DNA of 64,000 nt from a virus. The stretch spans positions 42,291 through 106,290 of IMG/VR virus record IMGVR_UViG_3300025096_002712; one strand, 5' to 3'. The notes under the pieces were generated by a model, which had not been told where the DNA came from, made no database searches, and was given only the letters and a program-made list of their open reading frames with translations. Numbering within the stretch: position 1 is the first letter of the stretch; each line of letters opens with the position of its first letter. The position numbers and the translations under genes were made by a program. This document shows, one piece after another, positions 3,001 to 10,442 of the stretch.

Positions 3001-4178
3001 TCCTATCTGGTTCAGGTGATTTATTAGTTGGCGATAGTGGTGGTAATAAGATTCAATATGATGCATCTGTAGGTTCTATTAATATGAAGTCTCGTACTTT
3101 TAATTTAGATGCAACAACAATAGTTGTGGATTCTGCTACAAATAATGGTAAAATGGCACTTGGTGGTACACCACCAACTTCTGTTGCATCAACAGTTACT
3201 GGAAGTTATCTTGATGGGTTTGGAAATGTTTTATTTAGACAGAGTGCAGATGATTATTTAAAATTTACCAATAGAAAGTTGGATATGCATGCTAAAAGCT
3301 TTTTCTTGGGTGGAGCATCACAATATGTAAGTGGAAGTGGTGGAAACTTAAAAATATATAGTACTGGAGATACAACACTTAGTGGAAGTTCTGTTACGGT
3401 AGAAACACCTAAGTTTTTCTTAGGTAAACAAGGTTCTCAATATGTAAGTGGAAGTAACAATCTTCTTGAGATAAGCTCATCTAAGTTTCATTTGAAAAAT
3501 GATGGTAGTGTTACAATGACTGGTAATGTTACTGCTACTACTGGAGAAATTGGTGGTTATGTAATAAGTAGTACAGCTATGTCTGCTTCATCAGGTGGTG
3601 TTATTATTACAACAAATGCAAATGCTGACATTTATCAAGGTGGTGGAGCCTATCTCGACAATGTACCATATATGTATGCAGAAAATGCTATATTTGGTGA
3701 TTGGGATAACTACTTTAGAGTTTTTGATGGTAGAATGTACGCAGGTAAAGGAATACAAACTCAGGGAATTTGGTTAGATGCAAATGATACGACCTTAAAA
3801 TTAGGTGCTGATAATCCAAAACTCATGACATACACATCTAAAACTGGAATATTCTTATCGGGATCTGGACATTTTAGAGTTGGTTCACCTACTGGTTCAA
3901 GGGTATCATTTGACACTACAAACCTTATAATAAGTACCAGTAATTTTGATGTTATAGGTGGTGCAGTAACCGCAAGCGCTGGTTCAATTGCAGACTGGAC
4001 AATTACGACATCAAGTTTGGAATCAAACACGGATGACCTTAGAGGACTTAAACTGAAACCAGGGGATAGAGTAGTTGGATACGGGCCCACGGCACATACA
4101 AAACAGACTATATCTGGTTCGTTTAGTTTTGGAGTTTTACCAACACCTCCAGGTGAAGGTGGCGGAATAGCTTGGTAA
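3..4178 (+). CDS. Large Ser/Gly-rich repeat-built tail fibre/virion structural protein (5'-truncated)
   Basis: Frame is open from position 3 (IFDGSG...GWRITSANNGEAEFEKVTIRGTLATTVFE), so the TTG at 237 is internal. Contains GxIGGW-type and TPxF(F/Y)xG-x-YISGS repeats typical of phage fibres and sits next to S74 fibre genes. Confidence 0.75.
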   Translation: MFDGSGTAYSDEIVHLGDARNQIASWSLSTSQISSNNLILDSSGIIQTSDFASGVKGWRITSANNGEAEFEKVTIRGTLATTVFEKESVSAVGGQLYVANSTIISQSTQLAASDTTMSVANVGGFTGSYNNNNGEVISIKKVTDTGFTTEYVLIQSASRDNPSSDKDLRGKLYVVRGYSGSTPADSSSLGDAAQSAQTYENGQVIVSTGRVNTGYIRLNANPNDTTTPYIDIVERTGSAIYDVSLKARLGDLSGLSSGLLYGNTSPGFGLFTENVFLQGAITATTGSFTGIVHIRTDASNQIKMGTNVNGNADGFSLNNNNFWYTTGDFRVGGASSNYFYISGSTIDIKTDTLVASGSSIQLKTPNFYFGDSSNYISGSGGKVAIVNTGTTTISGSAVNIQTPKFYFGNSQNFISGSNDNIKIQSYGTTTLSGSEVTIETPSFFFGKKSTQFVSGSNGYVEISSSKFHIQADGDVIANNITASNISMSGVVNASEGGIGGWVIGSNKIYTGTNETVSGYTSANGRLILSSSGAIHAKGFYVTKGGNASFSGSISSSEGNIAGWTIDADEIKSPGSTVVLDSDSSNGQIKLGSATALNTGDGIYMDGGGNFRAGDANGKRIQWDGTNITVSASDFFFGDNSNYISGSGGNLAIQNTGTTTISGSAVNIQTPKFFMGGSSQYVSGSNGNIEISSSNFHLSSSGDVTMAGTITATEGAIGGSTITSDALAYSPYWRISSSADTSDPVSFISSSAFKVSAGGNITGSSVLFDGGKVGGWTITENQLEANNIKINAASGYIEAGELSNVNDIDDTSVGFFANKDGEVLIKAGTSANKNYMQFKNGTLDINSDKVHISGSQITLKTPDFYFGDSSNYISGSGGNLAIVNTGTTTISGSAVTIETPRFFLGQKSTQYISGSLGNVEISSSKFHLQADGDVIANNITASNISMSGVVNSSAGTIGGWKILPGVLKSPGENVILSASNGGYISLGATPPITASSGVGIFLSGSGDLLVGDSGGNKIQYDASVGSINMKSRTFNLDATTIVVDSATNNGKMALGGTPPTSVASTVTGSYLDGFGNVLFRQSADDYLKFTNRKLDMHAKSFFLGGASQYVSGSGGNLKIYSTGDTTLSGSSVTVETPKFFLGKQGSQYVSGSNNLLEISSSKFHLKNDGSVTMTGNVTATTGEIGGYVISSTAMSASSGGVIITTNANADIYQGGGAYLDNVPYMYAENAIFGDWDNYFRVFDGRMYAGKGIQTQGIWLDANDTTLKLGADNPKLMTYTSKTGIFLSGSGHFRVGSPTGSRVSFDTTNLIISTSNFDVIGGAVTASAGSIADWTITTSSLESNTDDLRGLKLKPGDRVVGYGPTAHTKQTISGSFSFGVLPTPPGEGGGIAW
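1085..3490 (+). repeat. Intragenic modular repeats with near-identical DNA copies
   Basis: 1101-1135 equals 2589-2623 (35 nt identical); 1413-1478 vs 2787-2852 (66 nt, 2 mismatches); 1160-1218 vs 1961-2019 (1 mismatch). The protein unit TPxFFxGxxxxYISGSxGxxxI recurs in four blocks. Confidence 0.9.
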
Positions 4179-4222: not shown

Positions 4223-5608
4223 ATGGCACAAATTTTACCATTTAAATTAAATATTGAAACCGTAAAAGGCCATACAATATCATATGCAACATCATCATTT
4301 GCAAAAACAGATGAGGCCGGCCTTAGTGGATCTGTTATTTTAAGTAGAATAGATTCTATGCCTTCTATATCTTATAGTTCAAACGAAGTAATAGGAGGTG
4401 CAGCCTCACCGGCACACACTTTTTCACATGCAAATAATATTTGGATTTCTGCTTCAATGAATAGTACACATCACGGGTCAGGTTCAATTACATTTCATCA
4501 TACAGATTCATCGGATGTGAATGATAGATTAAAAAGATATAGATTTTTTGGTGATAAAGTATGTGCTGTTCTTGGATTACCTTCACGTCATTGGATATAT
4601 CCAGTCAATTTTCAATTGTCCGATGCAACTGGTGTAGCAAATTATTTTGCTGGGGATGTATCTGCAGACTCTTTGAATGTTGCAAATAGTTTTAATATGT
4701 CACCGCTAGCCTCATCTACATCACATGTCAGACTTAATGCTACATCAGGAAGTAATGATGTGTTTTTCTTAGTTTCAAGTGGATCAGGTGCCTTTCAAAA
4801 AAATATGATACAGATTGGGTATAATACAGATGATGATAAGTTTGTTATACGAGGTGGAACTGGAGAAAGTAGTCAAGGGGCTTATATTGATGATTTCATA
4901 AGTGTAACATCTAATTATGTCGATTCGTGGTATTTCAGACAAAAAGCAGTTACTGATTCTTATATAAAGCTTTATAGTGATAGTTTCACCTATAAATCAG
5001 AAGGTGAGGATTGTGTATATTTTGAGAAAATATCATCTAGCCCTCCAAGACGGAGATATAGGTTTGGTAATCCAGGCGTCAATGGTGTTCCTTCTGAAGT
5101 AGGCATTGAATCAGATTTCATTTTTTCTGCATCAGGATCTGCTAATGGTATGAATTATACAATTTGTGCTAAAGGTGAAAAAGATGAGGGTTTTGTTGGA
5201 ATACGAGAACAGAGTCCGTCTTATCCACTTGAAGTTTCCGAGCACGTTTCAAATATATCTATATACGCAGAATATGATGTAGCAGCTTATTCGGATATTA
5301 GAGTTAAAACGGATATAGAAACTATTACTGAACCATTAGATAAAGTATTAAAATTAAGAGGTGTTACTTTTAGAAGAACTGATGATAGTGCAAGTGATAG
5401 AGTAATGATGGGATTAATTGCACAAGAAACCGAACCTATTGTACCTGAAGTTGTTGTTACAAATGAAAATCCTGAAAGTGGTAAACGATATGGACATAAA
5501 TCAATTTCATATGGAAACCTTGTAGGATTATTAATAGAGGCAGTAAAAGAACAACAAGAACAAATAGAAGAATTAAAACAACAAGTAAAGGAGATAAAAG
5601 ATGGTTAA
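4223..5608 (+). CDS. Tail fibre protein with C-terminal peptidase S74 intramolecular chaperone
   Basis: YSDIRVKTDI...KLRGVTF...GLIAQE...VPEVV...YGNLVGLLIEAVKEQQEQIEELK; SD AAGGAG upstream. Confidence 0.85.
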   Translation: MAQILPFKLNIETVKGHTISYATSSFAKTDEAGLSGSVILSRIDSMPSISYSSNEVIGGAASPAHTFSHANNIWISASMNSTHHGSGSITFHHTDSSDVNDRLKRYRFFGDKVCAVLGLPSRHWIYPVNFQLSDATGVANYFAGDVSADSLNVANSFNMSPLASSTSHVRLNATSGSNDVFFLVSSGSGAFQKNMIQIGYNTDDDKFVIRGGTGESSQGAYIDDFISVTSNYVDSWYFRQKAVTDSYIKLYSDSFTYKSEGEDCVYFEKISSSPPRRRYRFGNPGVNGVPSEVGIESDFIFSASGSANGMNYTICAKGEKDEGFVGIREQSPSYPLEVSEHVSNISIYAEYDVAAYSDIRVKTDIETITEPLDKVLKLRGVTFRRTDDSASDRVMMGLIAQETEPIVPEVVVTNENPESGKRYGHKSISYGNLVGLLIEAVKEQQEQIEELKQQVKEIKDG

Positions 5609-5891
5609 ATGGGGTGGTAAAGAAAATACAATAATACCAAAATGTGTATGTCCAACAAGTGGAGTAATATATTTGTCTGAAATAAGACAAGAACTTGAAT
5701 CAACGAGTAATTCAAATGATTATGGTAATGGGCCATGGACTACTAATACGACAACATTAAAAAATTGTAATCTCTTCGTGTATGATAGTAGAAATACTAA
5801 TTCAGATGATTATCCAAATAGTTCAGAACCACATAAGATGACAGAGTGGTATAGTTATCATCATAACGCAACAAGTGGTATGGGGATGTAA
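5601..5891 (+). CDS. Small virion-associated protein (fibre-tip/attachment motif)
   Basis: PTSGVIYLSEIRQEL...PHKMTEWY resembles the PxSGx(I/L)SLxxI...P(H/I)xMSEFY motif of small proteins that follow S74 fibres; overlaps the upstream stop. Confidence 0.5.
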   Translation: MVKWGGKENTIIPKCVCPTSGVIYLSEIRQELESTSNSNDYGNGPWTTNTTTLKNCNLFVYDSRNTNSDDYPNSSEPHKMTEWYSYHHNATSGMGM

Positions 5892-6304
5892 TGAATAAAT
5901 TATTTCATAATAATAAAATTGAAGTTAGGGATTCATCTATACATGGACGAGGAGTTTTTGCAAAAGAAGATATTAAAAGTGGTGAAATCTTAGAAGAATG
6001 TCATTATATTGTGGTAGATGATGGTAATTCACACGATATGCCACTTTATAAATGGCGTCGTTTAACAGATAGTAATATACAAATTGATGAACGGAAATTT
6101 CAATGGCCTAAAGGTGAAGATTTTGAAAAATATACAATACCATTTGGATTTGGTACTATATACAATAGTGTATTAAACGAAGAAGAAAGAAGTGTTAATT
6201 GGGAAAATGATTTAGATAGAGATATTTATAGATTTTTTACAGTTAAAGATGTAAAAAAAGATGAAGAACTTTTATTATATTATCATAATGGCAAATTTAA
6301 ATAA
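5891..6304 (+). CDS. SET-domain protein (putative lysine methyltransferase)
   Basis: IEVRDSSIHGRGVFAKEDIKSGEILEEC...GFGTIYNS...KDVKKDEELLLYY. The canonical NHS motif reads NSV. Confidence 0.8.
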   Translation: MNKLFHNNKIEVRDSSIHGRGVFAKEDIKSGEILEECHYIVVDDGNSHDMPLYKWRRLTDSNIQIDERKFQWPKGEDFEKYTIPFGFGTIYNSVLNEEERSVNWENDLDRDIYRFFTVKDVKKDEELLLYYHNGKFK

Positions 6305-6319
6305 AAAGGGTAAATAGAA

Positions 6320-6763
6320 ATGGCTTTTACAGATAGAGGAGCATATTTAGATACATCGGAAAGGGTTCACATAGGTGGAACTGGTGATCCTTCTGTATCG
6401 TTGAAAGTAACAGGTGAAGTATATGTTACAAACAATATTACTGCCTATTATTCATCAGACATAAGTTTGAAAGATAATATCAGACCGATAGAAAGTGCCA
6501 TTTTTAAGGTCAAACAAATCAGAGGTGTTACCTTTGATTGGAATAAAAAATCAGGAAAAATTGAACAAGAAAAAGGTCATGATGTAGGTTTAATTGCACA
6601 AGAAGTTGAAAAGGTTTTACCAGAAGTTATTCAGATTCGTGAAGATGGAATCAAGGCAATTGCATATGAAAAGGTTGTACCACTATTAGTAGAAGCCATT
6701 AAAGAACAACAAACTCTTATTGAGGATTTATCAAATAGAATAAAGACATTAGAGGAAAGATAA
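6320..6763 (+). CDS. Mini-fibre with peptidase S74 chaperone
   Basis: About 45 aa N-terminal segment, then YYSSDISLKDNI...IRGVTFDW...VGLIAQEVEKVLPEVI...YEKVVPLLVEAIKEQQ. Confidence 0.85.
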   Translation: MAFTDRGAYLDTSERVHIGGTGDPSVSLKVTGEVYVTNNITAYYSSDISLKDNIRPIESAIFKVKQIRGVTFDWNKKSGKIEQEKGHDVGLIAQEVEKVLPEVIQIREDGIKAIAYEKVVPLLVEAIKEQQTLIEDLSNRIKTLEER

Positions 6764-7845
6764 TGGCACTACAAAGTGGATTTAAAATATTAGGTCTAAA
6801 TATTATAGATAGTGGTGGTGGTTATGGAACATCAAAAACTGGTAGTTTGAGAGCTAGAGATCCAGGTCAAGGAAATGGATTTTTAGGAAATTATTATTCT
6901 ACGGGTGGTAAAATAGTTTCTGCTTCAATATCAAATAAAGGTAAAAGTTATTCAAGTGGCTCTTGGGTACAACCGAACACGGCGATTAAAGGTGCAGTTA
7001 CTTCTATTTCAATTGGAACATATGCAGATCCAGCTACAGGATCTGGTTCAATAATATTACCAAACATTGGTATGGATATATCTATGAGTATATCTGATAT
7101 CAATAGAGAAAAGGGAATAGCAGCCACTACTGCAAATTCAGACATTCACGATTTATATGAAGATTTTTCATCAATAGCAGGTTCAGTTCATAGTGGTTTA
7201 GAGGGAAAACCAAATTTCGATTGGTGGCAAGGAGGTCCAGTTTCACAGTCAGCATCCCATCCTATAAGATTTGATGAATTTTATAATGCAAATTATTCAA
7301 TGTATGGTGGTGCAGGTTGTCTTGCAATAGGAACACCGATAACAATGGCAGATGGTTCTACTAAAAATGTAGAGGATGTAAATGTAGGGGATATGGTAAG
7401 GGCAGCAACAGTAAAAGGTATGCCATTAGATTTTGATGATGAAGATACTTGGTCTATTTGGACTGGTGTACCACACGGAAATCCACCTGGTTCAGTATGG
7501 GCTACCGCATATTATGATATACAAGAGATAAATCGAGTTACACCAGCAAGTGCGTCAGTTCAAGAGATTTATTTTGATTTTTATGATAATTATTATCTGA
7601 TAAATGGTTCTTTAAAGGCAACATATGAACATCCATTTTTTGTATTAAGAGATGGTAGTTATCATTTTAAAACAACAGCCAGTTTGTTACCTGGTGATAA
7701 GTTATTCAAAGATAATAACGAGTTTGAAGAAATAACATCACTTGAATTTGTACAAGAATCAATAGAAACAGTTAATCTTAATGTAGAAAATTTAGATGTT
7801 TATTTCGGTGGTGGTTATTTAATGCACAATGTTCATTCTAAATAG
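6763..7845 (+). CDS. Virion-associated protein with C-terminal Hint (BIL-type) domain
   Basis: Hint at 7318-7830: CLAIGTPITMADGSTKNVEDVNVGD...TYEHPF...VNLNVE...YFGGGYLMHN, followed only by VHSK-stop. Confidence 0.85.
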   Translation: MALQSGFKILGLNIIDSGGGYGTSKTGSLRARDPGQGNGFLGNYYSTGGKIVSASISNKGKSYSSGSWVQPNTAIKGAVTSISIGTYADPATGSGSIILPNIGMDISMSISDINREKGIAATTANSDIHDLYEDFSSIAGSVHSGLEGKPNFDWWQGGPVSQSASHPIRFDEFYNANYSMYGGAGCLAIGTPITMADGSTKNVEDVNVGDMVRAATVKGMPLDFDDEDTWSIWTGVPHGNPPGSVWATAYYDIQEINRVTPASASVQEIYFDFYDNYYLINGSLKATYEHPFFVLRDGSYHFKTTASLLPGDKLFKDNNEFEEITSLEFVQESIETVNLNVENLDVYFGGGYLMHNVHSK

Positions 7846-7853
7846 GAGTTATA

Positions 7854-8864
7854 ATGAGTTATGATGTTTATTACTCTACTGGAGGTGGTTCAGTAGTTTA
7901 TGGTGGAGCAGATATTTGGGTTAATAATTGGTTACGAGAAGTAGCCCCTAAATTAAATCATCCATCTAAATTACTAATTCATCGCCGTAGACCTGAAAAA
8001 GTAAAGGTAGAATTTGATTCACCAATAGAAGTTGTATGGCAAGGTGATCACCCAAAAGATTTCGAAGAAATAGCCTCGAAGGCTCGTAAGATTCATGTAT
8101 TACACGGATATTATACACCACATAGGATAATAGAAAGTAATAAAGATAAATTAGAATCAGTATGTATTCATGTATCAGTAGATTTATCGTTAAAGGCAGG
8201 ATTTCAATTAGGATTACCGAAGTTAATGCATTATGCAGCAAACGCATCTTGGGAAAAGAGAGTTTCAAAATGGGCAAAGAAGGTAGTGTGGATTGGGTTA
8301 GATAAGATTCCATTACATGATGAAGTAGGTATAATTGATTTACCAAATTATTACGAGTTTACACAAAATAAAAAAGTATGTATGAGTAATAAAGTTGGAT
8401 TTGCAGCAAGATGTGAAACTCGTAAATCACCACATTTCTTAGATGGTATTGATAGTTATTCTTTTACCGATCCAGAAGATTGGAGATGGTGGAAATTAAA
8501 TCTTGGGTTAGAGTTTAAAAATACTCGGTTATATCAATTTAAAAATAAAAATATTCATTGGTTTTTTAATAGAGAGGATTGGGGAATATCACATAGCTGT
8601 CATCTACATGAACCATTCGGTTATTCTATATTTCAAGCATTAGATTATGGAAAGTTACCTATATTACAAAAAGATTGGCTGTCAAACTATGATTATCCAT
8701 TCAGAGCTTTCAATAAGAAAGAGTTTGATGAACAATTACATAATATATCAGAGTTATCAGAGAAAGAAAGACAAGATTATTTGGATGGACTGAGAGATTA
8801 TTGTAGGAAGTATGATAATAAGGATGAATGGGTAGAGAAATATTTGGAAATATACAACGCATGA
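7854..8864 (+). CDS. GT-B fold glycosyltransferase (GT4-like)
   Basis: N-terminal GGADIWV; C-terminal HEPFGYSIFQALDYGKLPIL resembles the GT4 EPFG-x-EA-x-GxP motif; SD AGGAG. Confidence 0.7.
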   Translation: MSYDVYYSTGGGSVVYGGADIWVNNWLREVAPKLNHPSKLLIHRRRPEKVKVEFDSPIEVVWQGDHPKDFEEIASKARKIHVLHGYYTPHRIIESNKDKLESVCIHVSVDLSLKAGFQLGLPKLMHYAANASWEKRVSKWAKKVVWIGLDKIPLHDEVGIIDLPNYYEFTQNKKVCMSNKVGFAARCETRKSPHFLDGIDSYSFTDPEDWRWWKLNLGLEFKNTRLYQFKNKNIHWFFNREDWGISHSCHLHEPFGYSIFQALDYGKLPILQKDWLSNYDYPFRAFNKKEFDEQLHNISELSEKERQDYLDGLRDYCRKYDNKDEWVEKYLEIYNA

Positions 8865-8873
8865 TATTTATTA
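8865..8873 (+). promoter_or_regulatory. TATTTATTA promoter-like motif
   Basis: The same 9-mer occurs in intergenic gaps at 8865, 10470, 23118 and 59926. Confidence 0.5.
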
Positions 8874-8890
8874 ATAACACACAACACGGC

Positions 8891-8934
8891 ACGCGTATTA
8901 GACGAGAATCGTCTTTTTCATGCGTATTTTTTTT
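8891..8934 (+). terminator. Two-stem hairpin with U-tract (terminator/attenuator-like leader)
   Basis: ACGCGT(8891-96) pairs with ATGCGT(8920-25) enclosing AGACGA-GAA-TCGTCT(8900-14), followed by A-T8 and then the SD GGAG of the next gene. Confidence 0.55.
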
Positions 8935-8945
8935 GGAGAACTTTT

Positions 8946-10442
8946 TTGGCAACACCAACAGATGGAACTAAACTATCATTAGGAAAACTCGGTAGGGCAA
9001 CCGCCGTAGGTAATTCCGATTATACTTCTAAGACAAGTCTTAATGATGCTGGCAGAGATAGTGGAACTGATAAAACTAAGGTAAGTGATTTTTACATTGG
9101 TTCAGTAGATAATACTTTAGATGGTTATCCATATGTGGATGAACAAACAAATGAAACCTATACAATGACTTTCACTAATGAGAATAGTTTATTTCAATCT
9201 CGTATAGGTGGACGACACCAAAACTTTACTTGGAGTGGAAGTGCTTTATTTGCCCCACAATCAAATCAAGATTATACTGCAGTTTTTGCAGCAGGAACAA
9301 TAACAGACCACGCAACACCGAGTGTAAGTGAAAGTAATGTAGTTGTGGACTATGATTTTAATAATTGGGCAGATTCAAACACATTAGTTAGTTGGTCAGG
9401 TAGTGGGGCGAGTGTAATATCAAAGCATACTCTTGTAAGTCAATCACCATCTGGTTCTAATAATTTTGCAGTAAAGTTTAATACACAAGATAGTCATATA
9501 AGTCAGTCTTTAACAGTTAAAGGAAACTCTGTTTATAGAATTAGAGCAATGGCCTCATCTTCTAATCTTGATGAGGGAAATATAAATATGGAAATTAGTG
9601 GTGCTTATACTCAACAGACATTTAGAGGTATAGCAGGTAACGGTGAATGGAAAGAAACAAGAAATGATTTTTACACGAGTGGTTCTGCAGGAGTAACTCA
9701 AACCCTAAAACTTACTTTCACTGCAATATCAGCTTCTTCAGACCATAAACCACTATTAGATACGGTATTTTTTGAAAGATGGGAAGGTGCACATATGAGT
9801 GATACGAGTGTAGTTGTATCTGGTAAATATCATGATGCAGGACAGAGTGATGGGTTTAATGACCACGCTACACGATATAATACTGATATTACTAAAACTG
9901 TTGAAATACAAGATACATATGGTGGACTTGCAATAGCCTGTTTCTTACCAGGAACTTTAATATTAATGTCAGATGAAACTACAAAACCCATTGAAGATAT
10001 TAATGTGGGTGATGAAGTAATGTCATTAGATTTACCTGGACTTCCAGATGAAGATTTAGGATATTTAGAGTGGAAGGCTTATACAATGAGACCAATGGAT
10101 AATTTAGATGAAGTGATAGAAAGGTATAAGAAAACTGCAAATGTAGAACATTTATTTTATGATTATATGGATGGTTATTATAGTATTAATAATGGATACT
10201 TAAAAATTACGAGAGAACACGATCTTTTTATATATGATAATGGTATGTGGAGATGGATGACACCAAATGAAATAAGTGGTGGTATGAAATTATTTAGTTA
10301 TGAGGGCGAAATAATAAATATAGATTCGATAGAATGGGTAGAAGGTGAAGTTGAAGTTGTAAATTTTGATGTAGAACCATTGGATGTATATTTTGCAGGT
10401 GGAGTATTAGTTCACAACAAAGGAGCAAGTTCTGAACCATAA
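8946..10442 (+). CDS. Virion-associated protein: tip motif, CBM4/9-like beta-sandwich, C-terminal Hint (BIL-type) domain
   Basis: TTG start with SD GGAG. LSLGKL...KVSDFY at the N-terminus; DFNNW...ISQSLTVKGNSVYRI...LDTV (CBM-like); Hint at 9939-10418 CFLPGTLI...ITREH...VVNFDVE...YFAGGVLVHN, then KGASSEP-stop. Confidence 0.8.
   Translation: MATPTDGTKLSLGKLGRATAVGNSDYTSKTSLNDAGRDSGTDKTKVSDFYIGSVDNTLDGYPYVDEQTNETYTMTFTNENSLFQSRIGGRHQNFTWSGSALFAPQSNQDYTAVFAAGTITDHATPSVSESNVVVDYDFNNWADSNTLVSWSGSGASVISKHTLVSQSPSGSNNFAVKFNTQDSHISQSLTVKGNSVYRIRAMASSSNLDEGNINMEISGAYTQQTFRGIAGNGEWKETRNDFYTSGSAGVTQTLKLTFTAISASSDHKPLLDTVFFERWEGAHMSDTSVVVSGKYHDAGQSDGFNDHATRYNTDITKTVEIQDTYGGLAIACFLPGTLILMSDETTKPIEDINVGDEVMSLDLPGLPDEDLGYLEWKAYTMRPMDNLDEVIERYKKTANVEHLFYDYMDGYYSINNGYLKITREHDLFIYDNGMWRWMTPNEISGGMKLFSYEGEIINIDSIEWVEGEVEVVNFDVEPLDVYFAGGVLVHNKGASSEP

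What the first reader, a model, noticed from the sequence alone, without database searches (positions are those of the whole stretch)
6763..10442. Two virion proteins end in non-splicing Hint domains after Gly-Gly linkers: possible self-activated covalent conjugation
Seen: Hints at 7318-7830 and 9939-10418 keep Cys1, the TxxH block and terminal HN. The +1 residues are Val and Lys (no Cys/Ser/Thr), the C-terminal remainders are only 4 and 7 aa, and there is no endonuclease. The N-junctions are YGGAG|C and YGGLAIA|C. Known: Hedgehog and BIL Hints form an N-terminal thioester that an external nucleophile can resolve (cholesterol in Hedgehog). Inference: the Hint activates the C-terminus of the tip or CBM module for ligation to another virion protein, glycan or small molecule, or acts as a removable maturation domain. 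Selfish intein behaviour does not fit.
Basis: partly seen in the sequence, partly recalled or inferred. Interest (0 to 1): 0.8.

Follow-up and report, generated by a model that had tools for sequence, protein, structure and literature searches.

The report
Self-processing Hint caps on phage fibre proteins
Two neighbouring tail-fibre-region proteins of an uncultured marine giant phage each end in a small intein-like (Hint) domain followed by a tiny lysine-bearing tail. The domain most likely cuts itself off after the protein is made, a maturation route for phage fibres that I found described in no paper.

Summary
ORF-A (6763-7845, 360 aa) and ORF-B (8946-10442, 498 aa) end in paralogous mini-Hint domains (7318-7830, 9939-10418). 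Each has Cys1, TxxH, terminal His-Asn, no +1 Cys/Ser/Thr, no endonuclease, and a tail of 4 or 7 residues.

The catalytic residues are invariant in about 120 homologues of each protein. No Hint-less orthologue appears among the 120 best N-domain matches, so this is not a selfish intein.

An AlphaFold model (pLDDT 85.8) matches bacterial intein-like (BIL) domains best: Tetrahymena BUBL BIL2 (Z 18.9) and Clostridium thermocellum BIL (Z 17.2). ORF-B also carries a CBM16/CBM4-like module.

New here:
- 77 of 79 short tails in this Hint clade contain a lysine (22.8 expected).
- Two Hint-less paralogues of ORF-B end exactly at the YGG motif before the junction.
- Two neighbouring fibre proteins carry the self-cleaving S74 chaperone instead.

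Best reading: a type-A-BIL-like, self-removing C-terminal cap. Its thioester is resolved by water or by the tail lysine. Conjugation to another molecule is not excluded and has a precedent in BUBL BIL2.

This scan has reported the same module class in at least 51 other genomes. No processing has been shown experimentally.

The parts
6763..7845 (+). ORF-A, 360 aa: N-module of unknown fold, then linker, Hint and 4-residue tail
   Evidence: ORF. A family of 167 homologues, the top 120 at 46-100% identity. Cys186 is its only Cys.
7303..7317 (+). ORF-A pre-junction linker Y181-G-G-A-G185; predicted scissile bond Gly185|Cys186
   Evidence: Y181 119/120; G182, G183 and G185 120/120. The same (D/T)YGG motif precedes Cys1 in distant family members.
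7318..7830 (+). Hint A (Cys186-Asn356, 171 aa), type-A-BIL-like
   Evidence: C186 120/120; T287, E289, H290, H355 and N356 118/118. 39% identical to Hint B. phrog_38766 E 1.2e-9.
7831..7842 (+). ORF-A tail V-H-S-K (family consensus V-[HY]-x-K)
   Evidence: V357 118/120, H358 106/120, K360 119/120.
7854..8864 (+). Intervening 336-aa gene, no family assigned; always sits between the two Hint genes
   Evidence: No Pfam or PHROG hit and no PDB sequence hit. 75-81% identical and syntenic in L007-L010.
8946..10442 (+). ORF-B, 498 aa: base domain with an inserted CBM, then linker, Hint and 7-residue tail
   Evidence: ORF. 656 and 742 homologues. AF2 model pLDDT 85.8. Cys332 is its only Cys.
9321..9782 (+). 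CBM-like beta-jelly-roll (residues 126-279), the most variable part of ORF-B
   Evidence: VIA Z 16.5 to CBM16 2zew, 15.5 to CBM61, 14.8 to CBM4-2. DUF642 25.1 bits against a cut-off of 27. 57% mean identity across the family. Absent from the Hint-less paralogues.
9846..9938 (+). ORF-B pre-junction segment (residues 301-331, ending ...DTYGGLAIA), the most conserved part; predicted scissile bond Ala331|Cys332
   Evidence: 90% mean identity. E320, Q322, D323, Y325, G327 and A331 120/120. Model pLDDT below 50 at residues 326-329, which suggests a flexible linker.
9939..10418 (+). Hint B (Cys332-Asn491, 160 aa), type-A-BIL-like
   Evidence: C332, T422, H425, H490 and N491 120/120. VIA Z 18.9 (rmsd 1.8, 137 aligned) to BUBL BIL2 6y75, and 17.2 to Cth BIL 2lwy. 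Foldseek TMt 0.82 to 2lwy.
10419..10439 (+). ORF-B tail K-G-A-S-S-E-P (family consensus K-G-x-x-x-[EDN]-P)
   Evidence: K492, G493 and P498 120/120. Tail variants listed.
4223..5608 (+). Neighbouring tail-fibre protein (461 aa) with a C-terminal S74 self-cleaving intramolecular chaperone
   Evidence: Peptidase_S74 E 7.6e-15. Many tail-fibre PHROGs.
6320..6763 (+). 147-aa protein that is almost entirely an S74 chaperone domain; its stop overlaps the ORF-A start
   Evidence: Peptidase_S74 E 8.6e-17. phrog_8215 E 5.9e-41. Coordinates.

Best explanation
Each protein carries a C-terminal cassette: a Gly-rich linker, a type-A-BIL-like Hint, and a short lysine-bearing tail. The cassette acts once, on its own chain, to remove itself.

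Inferred steps:
1. After folding, Cys1 (Cys186 or Cys332), helped by the block-B Thr/His, converts the Gly185|Cys186 or Ala331|Cys332 peptide bond into a thioester.
2. The thioester is resolved either by water or by the amine of the conserved tail lysine (K360, K492). Water gives plain cleavage. The lysine gives a peptide or isopeptide link, as with the flank lysine in BUBL BIL2.
3. The terminal Asn (356, 491) cyclises and frees the Hint.

The mature fibre-module protein then ends at ...YGGAG or ...YGGLAIA, either free or capped by the 4- or 7-residue peptide.

Its role would parallel the S74 intramolecular chaperones on the neighbouring fibre genes. Both would be temporary C-terminal domains present during folding or assembly and discarded afterwards.

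Shown here: the fold, the residues, their conservation, the fixed presence, the lysine rule and the Hint-less paralogues. Inferred: every chemical step and the timing.
For: - **Fold and residues.** All type-A-BIL residues are present, and the best structural matches are BIL domains.
- **Conservation.** Cys1, TxxH and HN are invariant in about 120 homologues of each protein. The Hint (74-76% mean identity) is at least as conserved as the N-modules (56-72%), so the chemistry is under selection. Cys1 is the only Cys in each protein.
- **Fixed presence.** 116 of the 120 best N-domain matches carry the Hint, and the other 4 are truncated.
- **Tail lysine.** 77 of 79 short tails in the clade contain Lys against 22.8 expected, p < 5e-6. 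K is the +1 residue at 100 of 169 internal junctions.
- **Hint-less paralogues.** L010:715-1203 and L012:2501-2986 stop at ...NYGDAG and ...AYTGGS. That is at the YGG motif, with no Lys tail. The N-module therefore works when it ends there, and the tail belongs to the cassette.
- **Same cassette on bona fide fibre proteins.** Examples are P0366 (tail-collar fibre N-terminus plus fn3), P0381, and the Erwinia phage Y3/Yoloswag tail-module protein.
- **Neighbouring S74 caps**.
- **Published chemistry.** Type-A BILs mostly cleave and can splice without a +1 nucleophile (PMC4031507). BIL2 uses a flank lysine to form an isopeptide (PMC8616854).
Against: - No experiment or proteomic data show processing of these or any related phage proteins.
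- Hint domains are monomeric and have no known role in fibre trimerisation, so the parallel with S74 is only by position.
- If only removal were needed, the terminal Asn and tail would be dispensable, as in Hedgehog. Their strict conservation may therefore mean more than self-removal.
- The two Hint-less paralogues also lack the CBM, so they are not strict equivalents of a processed ORF-B.
- Virion location is inferred from gene context only.
Confidence: 0.6

Rival explanations
1. Conjugation in trans. The thioester is attacked by a nucleophile on another molecule, such as a lysine of another virion protein or a sugar made by the adjacent glycan island. This would covalently couple the C-terminus of the fibre-module protein without ATP or E1/E2 enzymes.
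For: The closest solved structure, BUBL BIL2 (Z 18.9), is reported to conjugate its N-flank to different substrates in trans (PMC8616854). The junction has a Gly-Gly-type C-terminus. The genes sit next to a long co-oriented run that includes several glycosyltransferase, methyltransferase and radical-SAM genes. ORF-B carries a CBM that could hold a glycan.
Against: No acceptor was identified. The same cassette caps unrelated fibre proteins in phages of very different kinds. The near-universal tail lysine offers a built-in acceptor. Hint-less paralogues end in a plain carboxyl terminus.
Confidence: 0.12
2. Infection-triggered chemistry. The Hint stays on the virion, and its thioester fires on contact with the host. 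It would either covalently anchor the fibre to a surface amine or hydroxyl, or release the fibre tip.
For: The position is next to a carbohydrate-binding module at the distal end of a fibre-module protein. BIL2 activity is switched by a ligand, Zn (PMC8616854).
Against: A single-turnover thioester equilibrium is unlikely to stay unspent in seawater. Nothing here tests this reading directly.
Confidence: 0.06
3. Inactive structural domain. The Hint has lost its activity and serves as a permanent distal knob.
For: Pfam scores are below threshold. Some Hint-fold domains in nature are non-catalytic (general knowledge).
Against: Cys1, the block-B His and the terminal His-Asn are invariant in about 240 homologues while the surroundings vary. 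These residues are not needed for the fold.
Confidence: 0.08
4. Ordinary selfish mini-intein that splices the short tail onto the host protein.
For: Terminal His-Asn and a conserved C-flank are present. Type-A BILs can splice (PMC4031507).
Against: There is no +1 Cys/Ser/Thr and no endonuclease. No intein-free allele was found among the closest 120 N-domain homologues. The Hint-less paralogues lack the tail peptide. The host is not a conserved enzyme site.
Confidence: 0.03

Closest known systems
Type-A bacterial intein-like (BIL) domains (Amitai 2003; Dassa 2004; Aranko 2013, C. thermocellum BIL, PDB 2LWY), as summarised in PMC4031507
   Same: Mini-Hint fold, Cys1, block-B TxxH, C-terminal His-Asn, no +1 nucleophile and no endonuclease. 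It sits in variable surface-type proteins and is fixed rather than sporadic. It is the best PDB sequence hit, with Z 17.2.
   Different: Here the domain is at the extreme C-terminus, with only 4-7 residues after it. The host is a phage fibre-module protein. The clade has its own signature: a (D/T)YGG or poly-Gly linker before Cys1 and a lysine in the tail. Pfam models miss it at threshold.
BIL2 of the Tetrahymena thermophila BUBL1 polyubiquitin-like locus (PDB 6Y75, 6TMM; Chiarini 2021, via PMC8616854)
   Same: It is the closest structure (Z 18.9, rmsd 1.8 A, 26% identity). A lysine of the C-flank acts as nucleophile to give an isopeptide. The N-flank ends in a small, flexible C-terminus.
   Different: BIL2 lies between two ubiquitin-like domains in a eukaryote. 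Here the flanks are a fibre-module protein and a 4-7 residue peptide. Whether the phage lysine is a nucleophile is untested.
Peptidase_S74 C-terminal intramolecular chaperone of phage tail spikes and fibres (endosialidase type)
   Same: It is a self-cleaving domain at the C-terminus of phage fibre proteins. It is present on two neighbouring genes of this very module.
   Different: The fold and chemistry are unrelated: a Ser-Lys dyad in a trimer, against a Cys thioester and Asn cyclisation in a monomeric Hint.
Hedgehog/Hog C-terminal autoprocessing domain
   Same: A C-terminal Hint that cleaves at Gly|Cys-Phe through a thioester resolved by a non-protein nucleophile. Fold Z is 16.0-16.1 (1at0, 6tyy).
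   Different: Hedgehog lacks the terminal Asn and has a sterol-recognition region after the Hint. Here His-Asn is invariant and only a short Lys tail follows.
Erwinia jumbo phage Y3 gp110 and Yoloswag gp103 ('virion structural protein; putative phage tail protein, contains intein domain'), phrog_38766
   Same: A C-terminal Hint ending 10 residues before the stop, a Lys in the tail, and a location in the tail module.
   Different: +1 is Thr. The N-terminal part is unrelated. It has only been annotated, not studied.

Membership tests
Type-A BIL domain | Hint fold of mini-intein size without a homing endonuclease | tested here: met
   VIA Z 17.2-18.9 to BIL structures over residues 328-493. Foldseek TMt 0.82. 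Lengths are 160 and 171 aa, with no endonuclease Pfam hit.
Type-A BIL domain | N-terminal Cys (or Ser) plus block-B Thr-x-x-His | tested here: met
   C186, T287 and H290; C332, T422 and H425. All are invariant in 118-120 homologues.
Type-A BIL domain | C-terminal His-Asn, with no Cys/Ser/Thr at +1 | tested here: met
   HN|V and HN|K. V357 in 118/120 and K492 in 120/120.
Type-A BIL domain | Fixed, non-sporadic presence in variable or surface proteins rather than conserved enzyme sites | tested here: met
   116/120 best N-domain matches carry it, and the rest are truncated. The hosts are fibre-type proteins.
Type-A BIL domain | Autocatalytic N- and C-terminal cleavage, with or without splicing | not testable with these tools
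   Needs expression and mass spectrometry.
Classical (class 1) intein | +1 Cys/Ser/Thr nucleophile | tested here: not met
   +1 is Val or Lys, invariant across the families.
Classical (class 1) intein | Sporadic distribution with intein-free alleles | tested here: not met
   No Hint-free orthologue among the 120 best N-domain hits.
Hedgehog/Hog autoprocessing domain | No terminal Asn; a sterol- or adduct-recognition region follows the Hint | tested here: not met
   His-Asn is invariant and only 4 or 7 residues follow.
Pretoxin HINT (PT-HINT) of polymorphic toxins | Hint lies immediately upstream of a C-terminal toxin domain that it releases | tested here: not met
   Nothing but a 4-7 residue tail follows. 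The Pfam PT-HINT score is below the cut-off.
BUBL-type BIL (isopeptide-forming) | Lysine of the C-flank acts as nucleophile on the N-junction thioester | tested here: inconclusive
   A conserved Lys is present in both tails and in 77/79 tails of the clade. This is the closest fold. Its role as nucleophile is untested.
BUBL-type BIL (isopeptide-forming) | Flanked by ubiquitin-like domains | tested here: not met
   The N-flanks are a CBM-bearing base domain and an unknown module. No Ubl hit in Pfam or by fold search.

The most novel reading that the evidence does not exclude
The cassette is a self-contained, ATP-independent conjugation device, a phage counterpart of BUBL. The Hint thioester would transfer the C-terminus of the fibre-module protein to a lysine of another virion protein, or to a glycan built by the adjacent biosynthetic island. 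The tail lysine would serve only as the default acceptor.
Probability: 0.12. Interest if true: 0.85.

Novelty: new variant of a known kind. Interest (0 to 1): 0.6.

Why it matters
Phage fibres and receptor-binding proteins are known to mature through separate chaperones or through the S74 self-cleaving chaperone. A Hint/thioester-based cap would be a third, chemically different route.

It is widespread. The profile search found 6480 hits, and many of the best-scoring ones are terminal caps on fibre-type proteins. Even so, curated family models miss it at their thresholds, and I found no paper on it.

The lysine rule gives a sharp, cheap experimental question: does the tail lysine resolve the thioester?

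If it does, the cassette would be a natural, compact tag that removes itself. It could alternatively be a natural self-ligating tag. It would also tie phage biology to the only other known lysine-directed Hint, ciliate BUBL.

For annotation, it warns that the gene-predicted C-terminus of many phage fibre proteins is probably not the C-terminus found in the virion.

Tried and rejected
- **blastn against cultured phages.** The region gave no match. tblastn matched only the Hint part. No cultured relative of the N-modules was found.
- **Single-sequence AlphaFold of ORF-B.** It failed (pLDDT 32.7). Only the alignment-based model was used.
- **ORF-A structure.** Its N-module stays unassigned, and the ESM Atlas gave only unnamed viral clusters at 0.86.
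- **Intervening 336-aa gene.** No Pfam, PHROG or PDB sequence match. I leave it unnamed rather than call it a glycosyltransferase.
- **Literature.** Searches combining Hint, BIL or intein-like with phage tail fibre or structural protein found no paper on terminal Hints of phage fibres. Hits in phiCbK, CBB, PaBG and the jumbo-phage review concern ordinary inteins. The primary BUBL paper is not held.
- **The look-up of encoding contigs.** The genomic context of the tandem-Hint proteins and of P0366 could not be checked.
- **Selfish-intein and read-through readings.** Both rejected. The next gene is in another frame and tail lengths vary among homologues.
- **Model coordinates.** They are not available to scripts, so the distance from the tail Lys to Cys1 could not be measured.

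Full report
**1. What is there**

The window is the 3' 64 kb of a 106-kb IMG/VR virus contig with a CheckV completeness of 45%. GC is about 30%, and all long ORFs lie on the + strand. Upstream are a gp6-like baseplate wedge gene and fibre-type genes. A 3375-aa ORF runs into the window and ends at 4178.

The gene order then runs as follows:
- a 461-aa tail-fibre protein with a C-terminal Peptidase_S74 chaperone (4223-5608);
- a SET-domain gene;
- a 147-aa protein that is almost only an S74 domain (6320-6763);
- ORF-A (6763-7845);
- a 336-aa gene with no family;
- ORF-B (8946-10442);
- a methyltransferase, radical-SAM genes and glycosyltransferases.

The order S74-147, ORF-A, 336-aa gene, ORF-B, methyltransferase, radical SAM is kept in three related viral contigs. 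In a fourth, ORF-A is absent from the stretch fetched.

**2.

- Cys186 and Cys332 are at nt 7318 and 9939.
- TxxH is present in both proteins.
- His-Asn ends at nt 7830 and 10418.
- The +1 residues are Val and Lys.
- The tails are VHSK and KGASSEP.
- The junctions are YGGAG|C and YGGLAIA|C.

The two Hints are paralogues (39% identity, E 1.8e-27). Pfam reaches them only below its gathering scores. PHROGs links them to phrog_38766, 'virion structural protein'.

An alignment-based AlphaFold model of ORF-B is confident (pLDDT 85.8). The linker (326-329) and the tail end (495-498) are low, as expected for flexible parts. Residues 328-493 superpose best on three kinds of structure:
- the BIL2 domain of the Tetrahymena BUBL1 locus (Z 18.9, rmsd 1.8 A, 137 residues);
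- the Clostridium thermocellum BIL (Z 17.2);
- mini-inteins and the Hedgehog autoprocessing domain (Z about 16).

Residues 126-279 are a CBM16/CBM4/CBM61-like jelly roll (Z 14.8-16.5).

**3. Under selection, and not a selfish intein**

ORF-B has 656 homologues in marine metagenomes and ORF-A has 167. The best 120 of each are essentially full length.

In ORF-B, these residues are invariant in 120/120: C332, T422, H425, H490, N491, K492, G493 and P498. In ORF-A, C186 is 120/120; T287, H290, H355 and N356 are 118/118; K360 is 119/120.

Mean identity to the window protein, by segment of ORF-B:

| Segment | Mean identity |
|---|---|
| 30 residues before the junction | 90% |
| Tail | 87% |
| Hint | 74% |
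| N-terminal base domain | 72% |
| CBM | 57% |

This pattern fits a variable binding module attached to a conserved processing module.

A search with the N-domain alone returned 742 hits. Of the best 120, 116 are 485-534 aa and carry the Hint. The other four are cut by contig ends or truncated inside the Hint. Cys1 is the only cysteine in each protein.

**4. The wider family**

A two-sequence Hint profile found 6480 proteins at E <= 1e-3 among 1.8 billion representatives. Among the best 150, 80 Hints lie within 30 residues of the protein's end. They follow one plan:
- a variable N-part;
- a Gly-rich or (D/T)YGG linker;
- Cys, then the Hint, then His-Asn;
- a short tail.

N-parts include a tail-collar fibre N-terminus with fn3 domains (P0366), tail-fibre PHROG families (P0381), fn3 and Calx-beta.

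Cultured Erwinia jumbo phages Y3 and Yoloswag carry the same cap on a tail-module protein. That protein is annotated 'putative phage tail protein, contains intein domain'. Its junction reads ...QSG|CIVFGS and its end reads ...VLVHN plus a 10-residue tail containing Lys.

**5. The lysine rule**

Of 79 short tails (1-30 residues), 77 contain at least one lysine. From each protein's own lysine content, 22.8 were expected, and none of 200,000 simulations reached 77.

Only 6 of the 79 have Ser or Thr at +1, and none has Cys. At internal junctions of the same clade, +1 is Lys in 100 of 169, and Gly follows in 70 of those 100. So the 'remainders' are part of the module, not leftovers.

The published precedent is BIL2, the closest structure. 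There a lysine of the C-terminal flank is the nucleophile that attacks the N-junction, giving an isopeptide without ATP. BIL2 can also load other substrates (PMC8616854, section 2.4, citing Chiarini 2021).

Type-A BILs in general have Cys1 and His-Asn and lack the +1 nucleophile. They mostly cleave, and they can splice when the freed amine of the C-flank attacks the thioester (PMC4031507, citing Amitai 2003, Dassa 2004, Aranko 2013).

**6. Hint-less paralogues mark the mature end**

Two viral contigs encode 161-162-aa proteins homologous to ORF-B residues 4-113 and 288-314. They have neither the CBM nor the Hint.

They end ...NFNYGDAG-stop and ...AYAYTGGS-stop. That is one to three residues after the YGG motif, where the Hint-bearing forms would be cut. 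They have no lysine tail. This shows three things:
- The base domain is viable when it ends there.
- The CBM is an insertion into that domain.
- The tail travels with the Hint, not with the host protein.

In P0369 and L017 the same kind of Hint is internal. It is followed by K-G-T-T-T-Q-P in P0369, and a LamG-like domain comes after it. The cassette can therefore also sit between two domains.

**7. Mechanism**

I commit to self-removal at 0.6. A thioester forms at Gly185|Cys186 and Ala331|Cys332. Water or the tail lysine resolves it. Asn cyclisation then frees the Hint.

The two neighbouring genes with S74 caps suggest the same logic by a different chemistry: a temporary C-terminal domain. All chemical steps are inferred.

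The rivals are trans conjugation (0.12), infection-triggered chemistry (0.06), an inactive knob (0.08) and a selfish intein (0.03).

**8. Comparison and novelty**

By every sequence and fold criterion I could test, these are type-A-BIL-like Hints. Only activity is untestable here. They fail the defining tests for classical inteins, Hedgehog Hints and pretoxin Hints.

Three things are not in the literature I could search: the terminal position on phage fibre-module proteins, the linker and lysine signature, and any function.

This scan has already reported the same class in at least 51 other genomes, with similar conclusions. I reached the lysine statistic before reading those notes.

Specific to this locus are:
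- the pair of paralogous caps flanking a conserved unknown gene;
- the S74 neighbours;
- the Hint-less paralogues;
- BIL2 as the closest structure.

**Limits**
- There are no experimental data.
- ORF-A was not modelled.

Noticed in passing
Proteins P0241, P0242, P0247, P0248, P0250, P0255, P0264: Proteins made of tandem Hint domains that abut directly, separated only by K, KG, KGG or KGGGG (...LVHN-KGG|CFLPGT...), up to about six or seven in a row. If each one excised itself, almost nothing but the linkers would remain. Their source and purpose are unknown.
   Followed up: partly
window 6320-6763: A 147-aa protein that is little more than an S74 self-cleaving chaperone domain with about 45 residues in front. 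Its stop codon overlaps the ATG of ORF-A by one base, which suggests coupled translation.
   Followed up: no
L010:715-1203 and L012:2501-2986: 161-162-aa paralogues of the ORF-B base domain without the CBM and without the Hint. They show that the CBM (ORF-B residues 126-279) is an insertion into a smaller conserved domain with the N-terminal motif L-(S/L)-L-(G/A)-K-L-G-R-A.
   Followed up: partly
P0369 and L017:4512-6254: The same Hint subtype lies internally, between an N-part of about 165 aa and a LamG/ConA-like domain of about 240 aa. In P0369 the +1 to +7 sequence is K-G-T-T-T-Q-P, like the ORF-B tail. This may be a true two-domain BIL substrate.
   Followed up: no
window 7854-8864: A 336-aa gene always found between the two Hint genes (75-81% identity in relatives). 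It has no Pfam, PHROG or PDB sequence match, and its function is unknown.
   Followed up: partly
window 5891-6304: A SET-domain (lysine methyltransferase-type) gene sits among the fibre genes (Pfam E 1.9e-8). Both Hint tails carry an invariant lysine, but no link between the two was tested.
   Followed up: no
L003:8539-10560 (Erwinia phage Yoloswag gp98): This gene is annotated 'putative large intein domain protein', yet by eye its 673-aa sequence shows no Cys1, TxxH or HN Hint signature. The annotation may be wrong.
   Followed up: no
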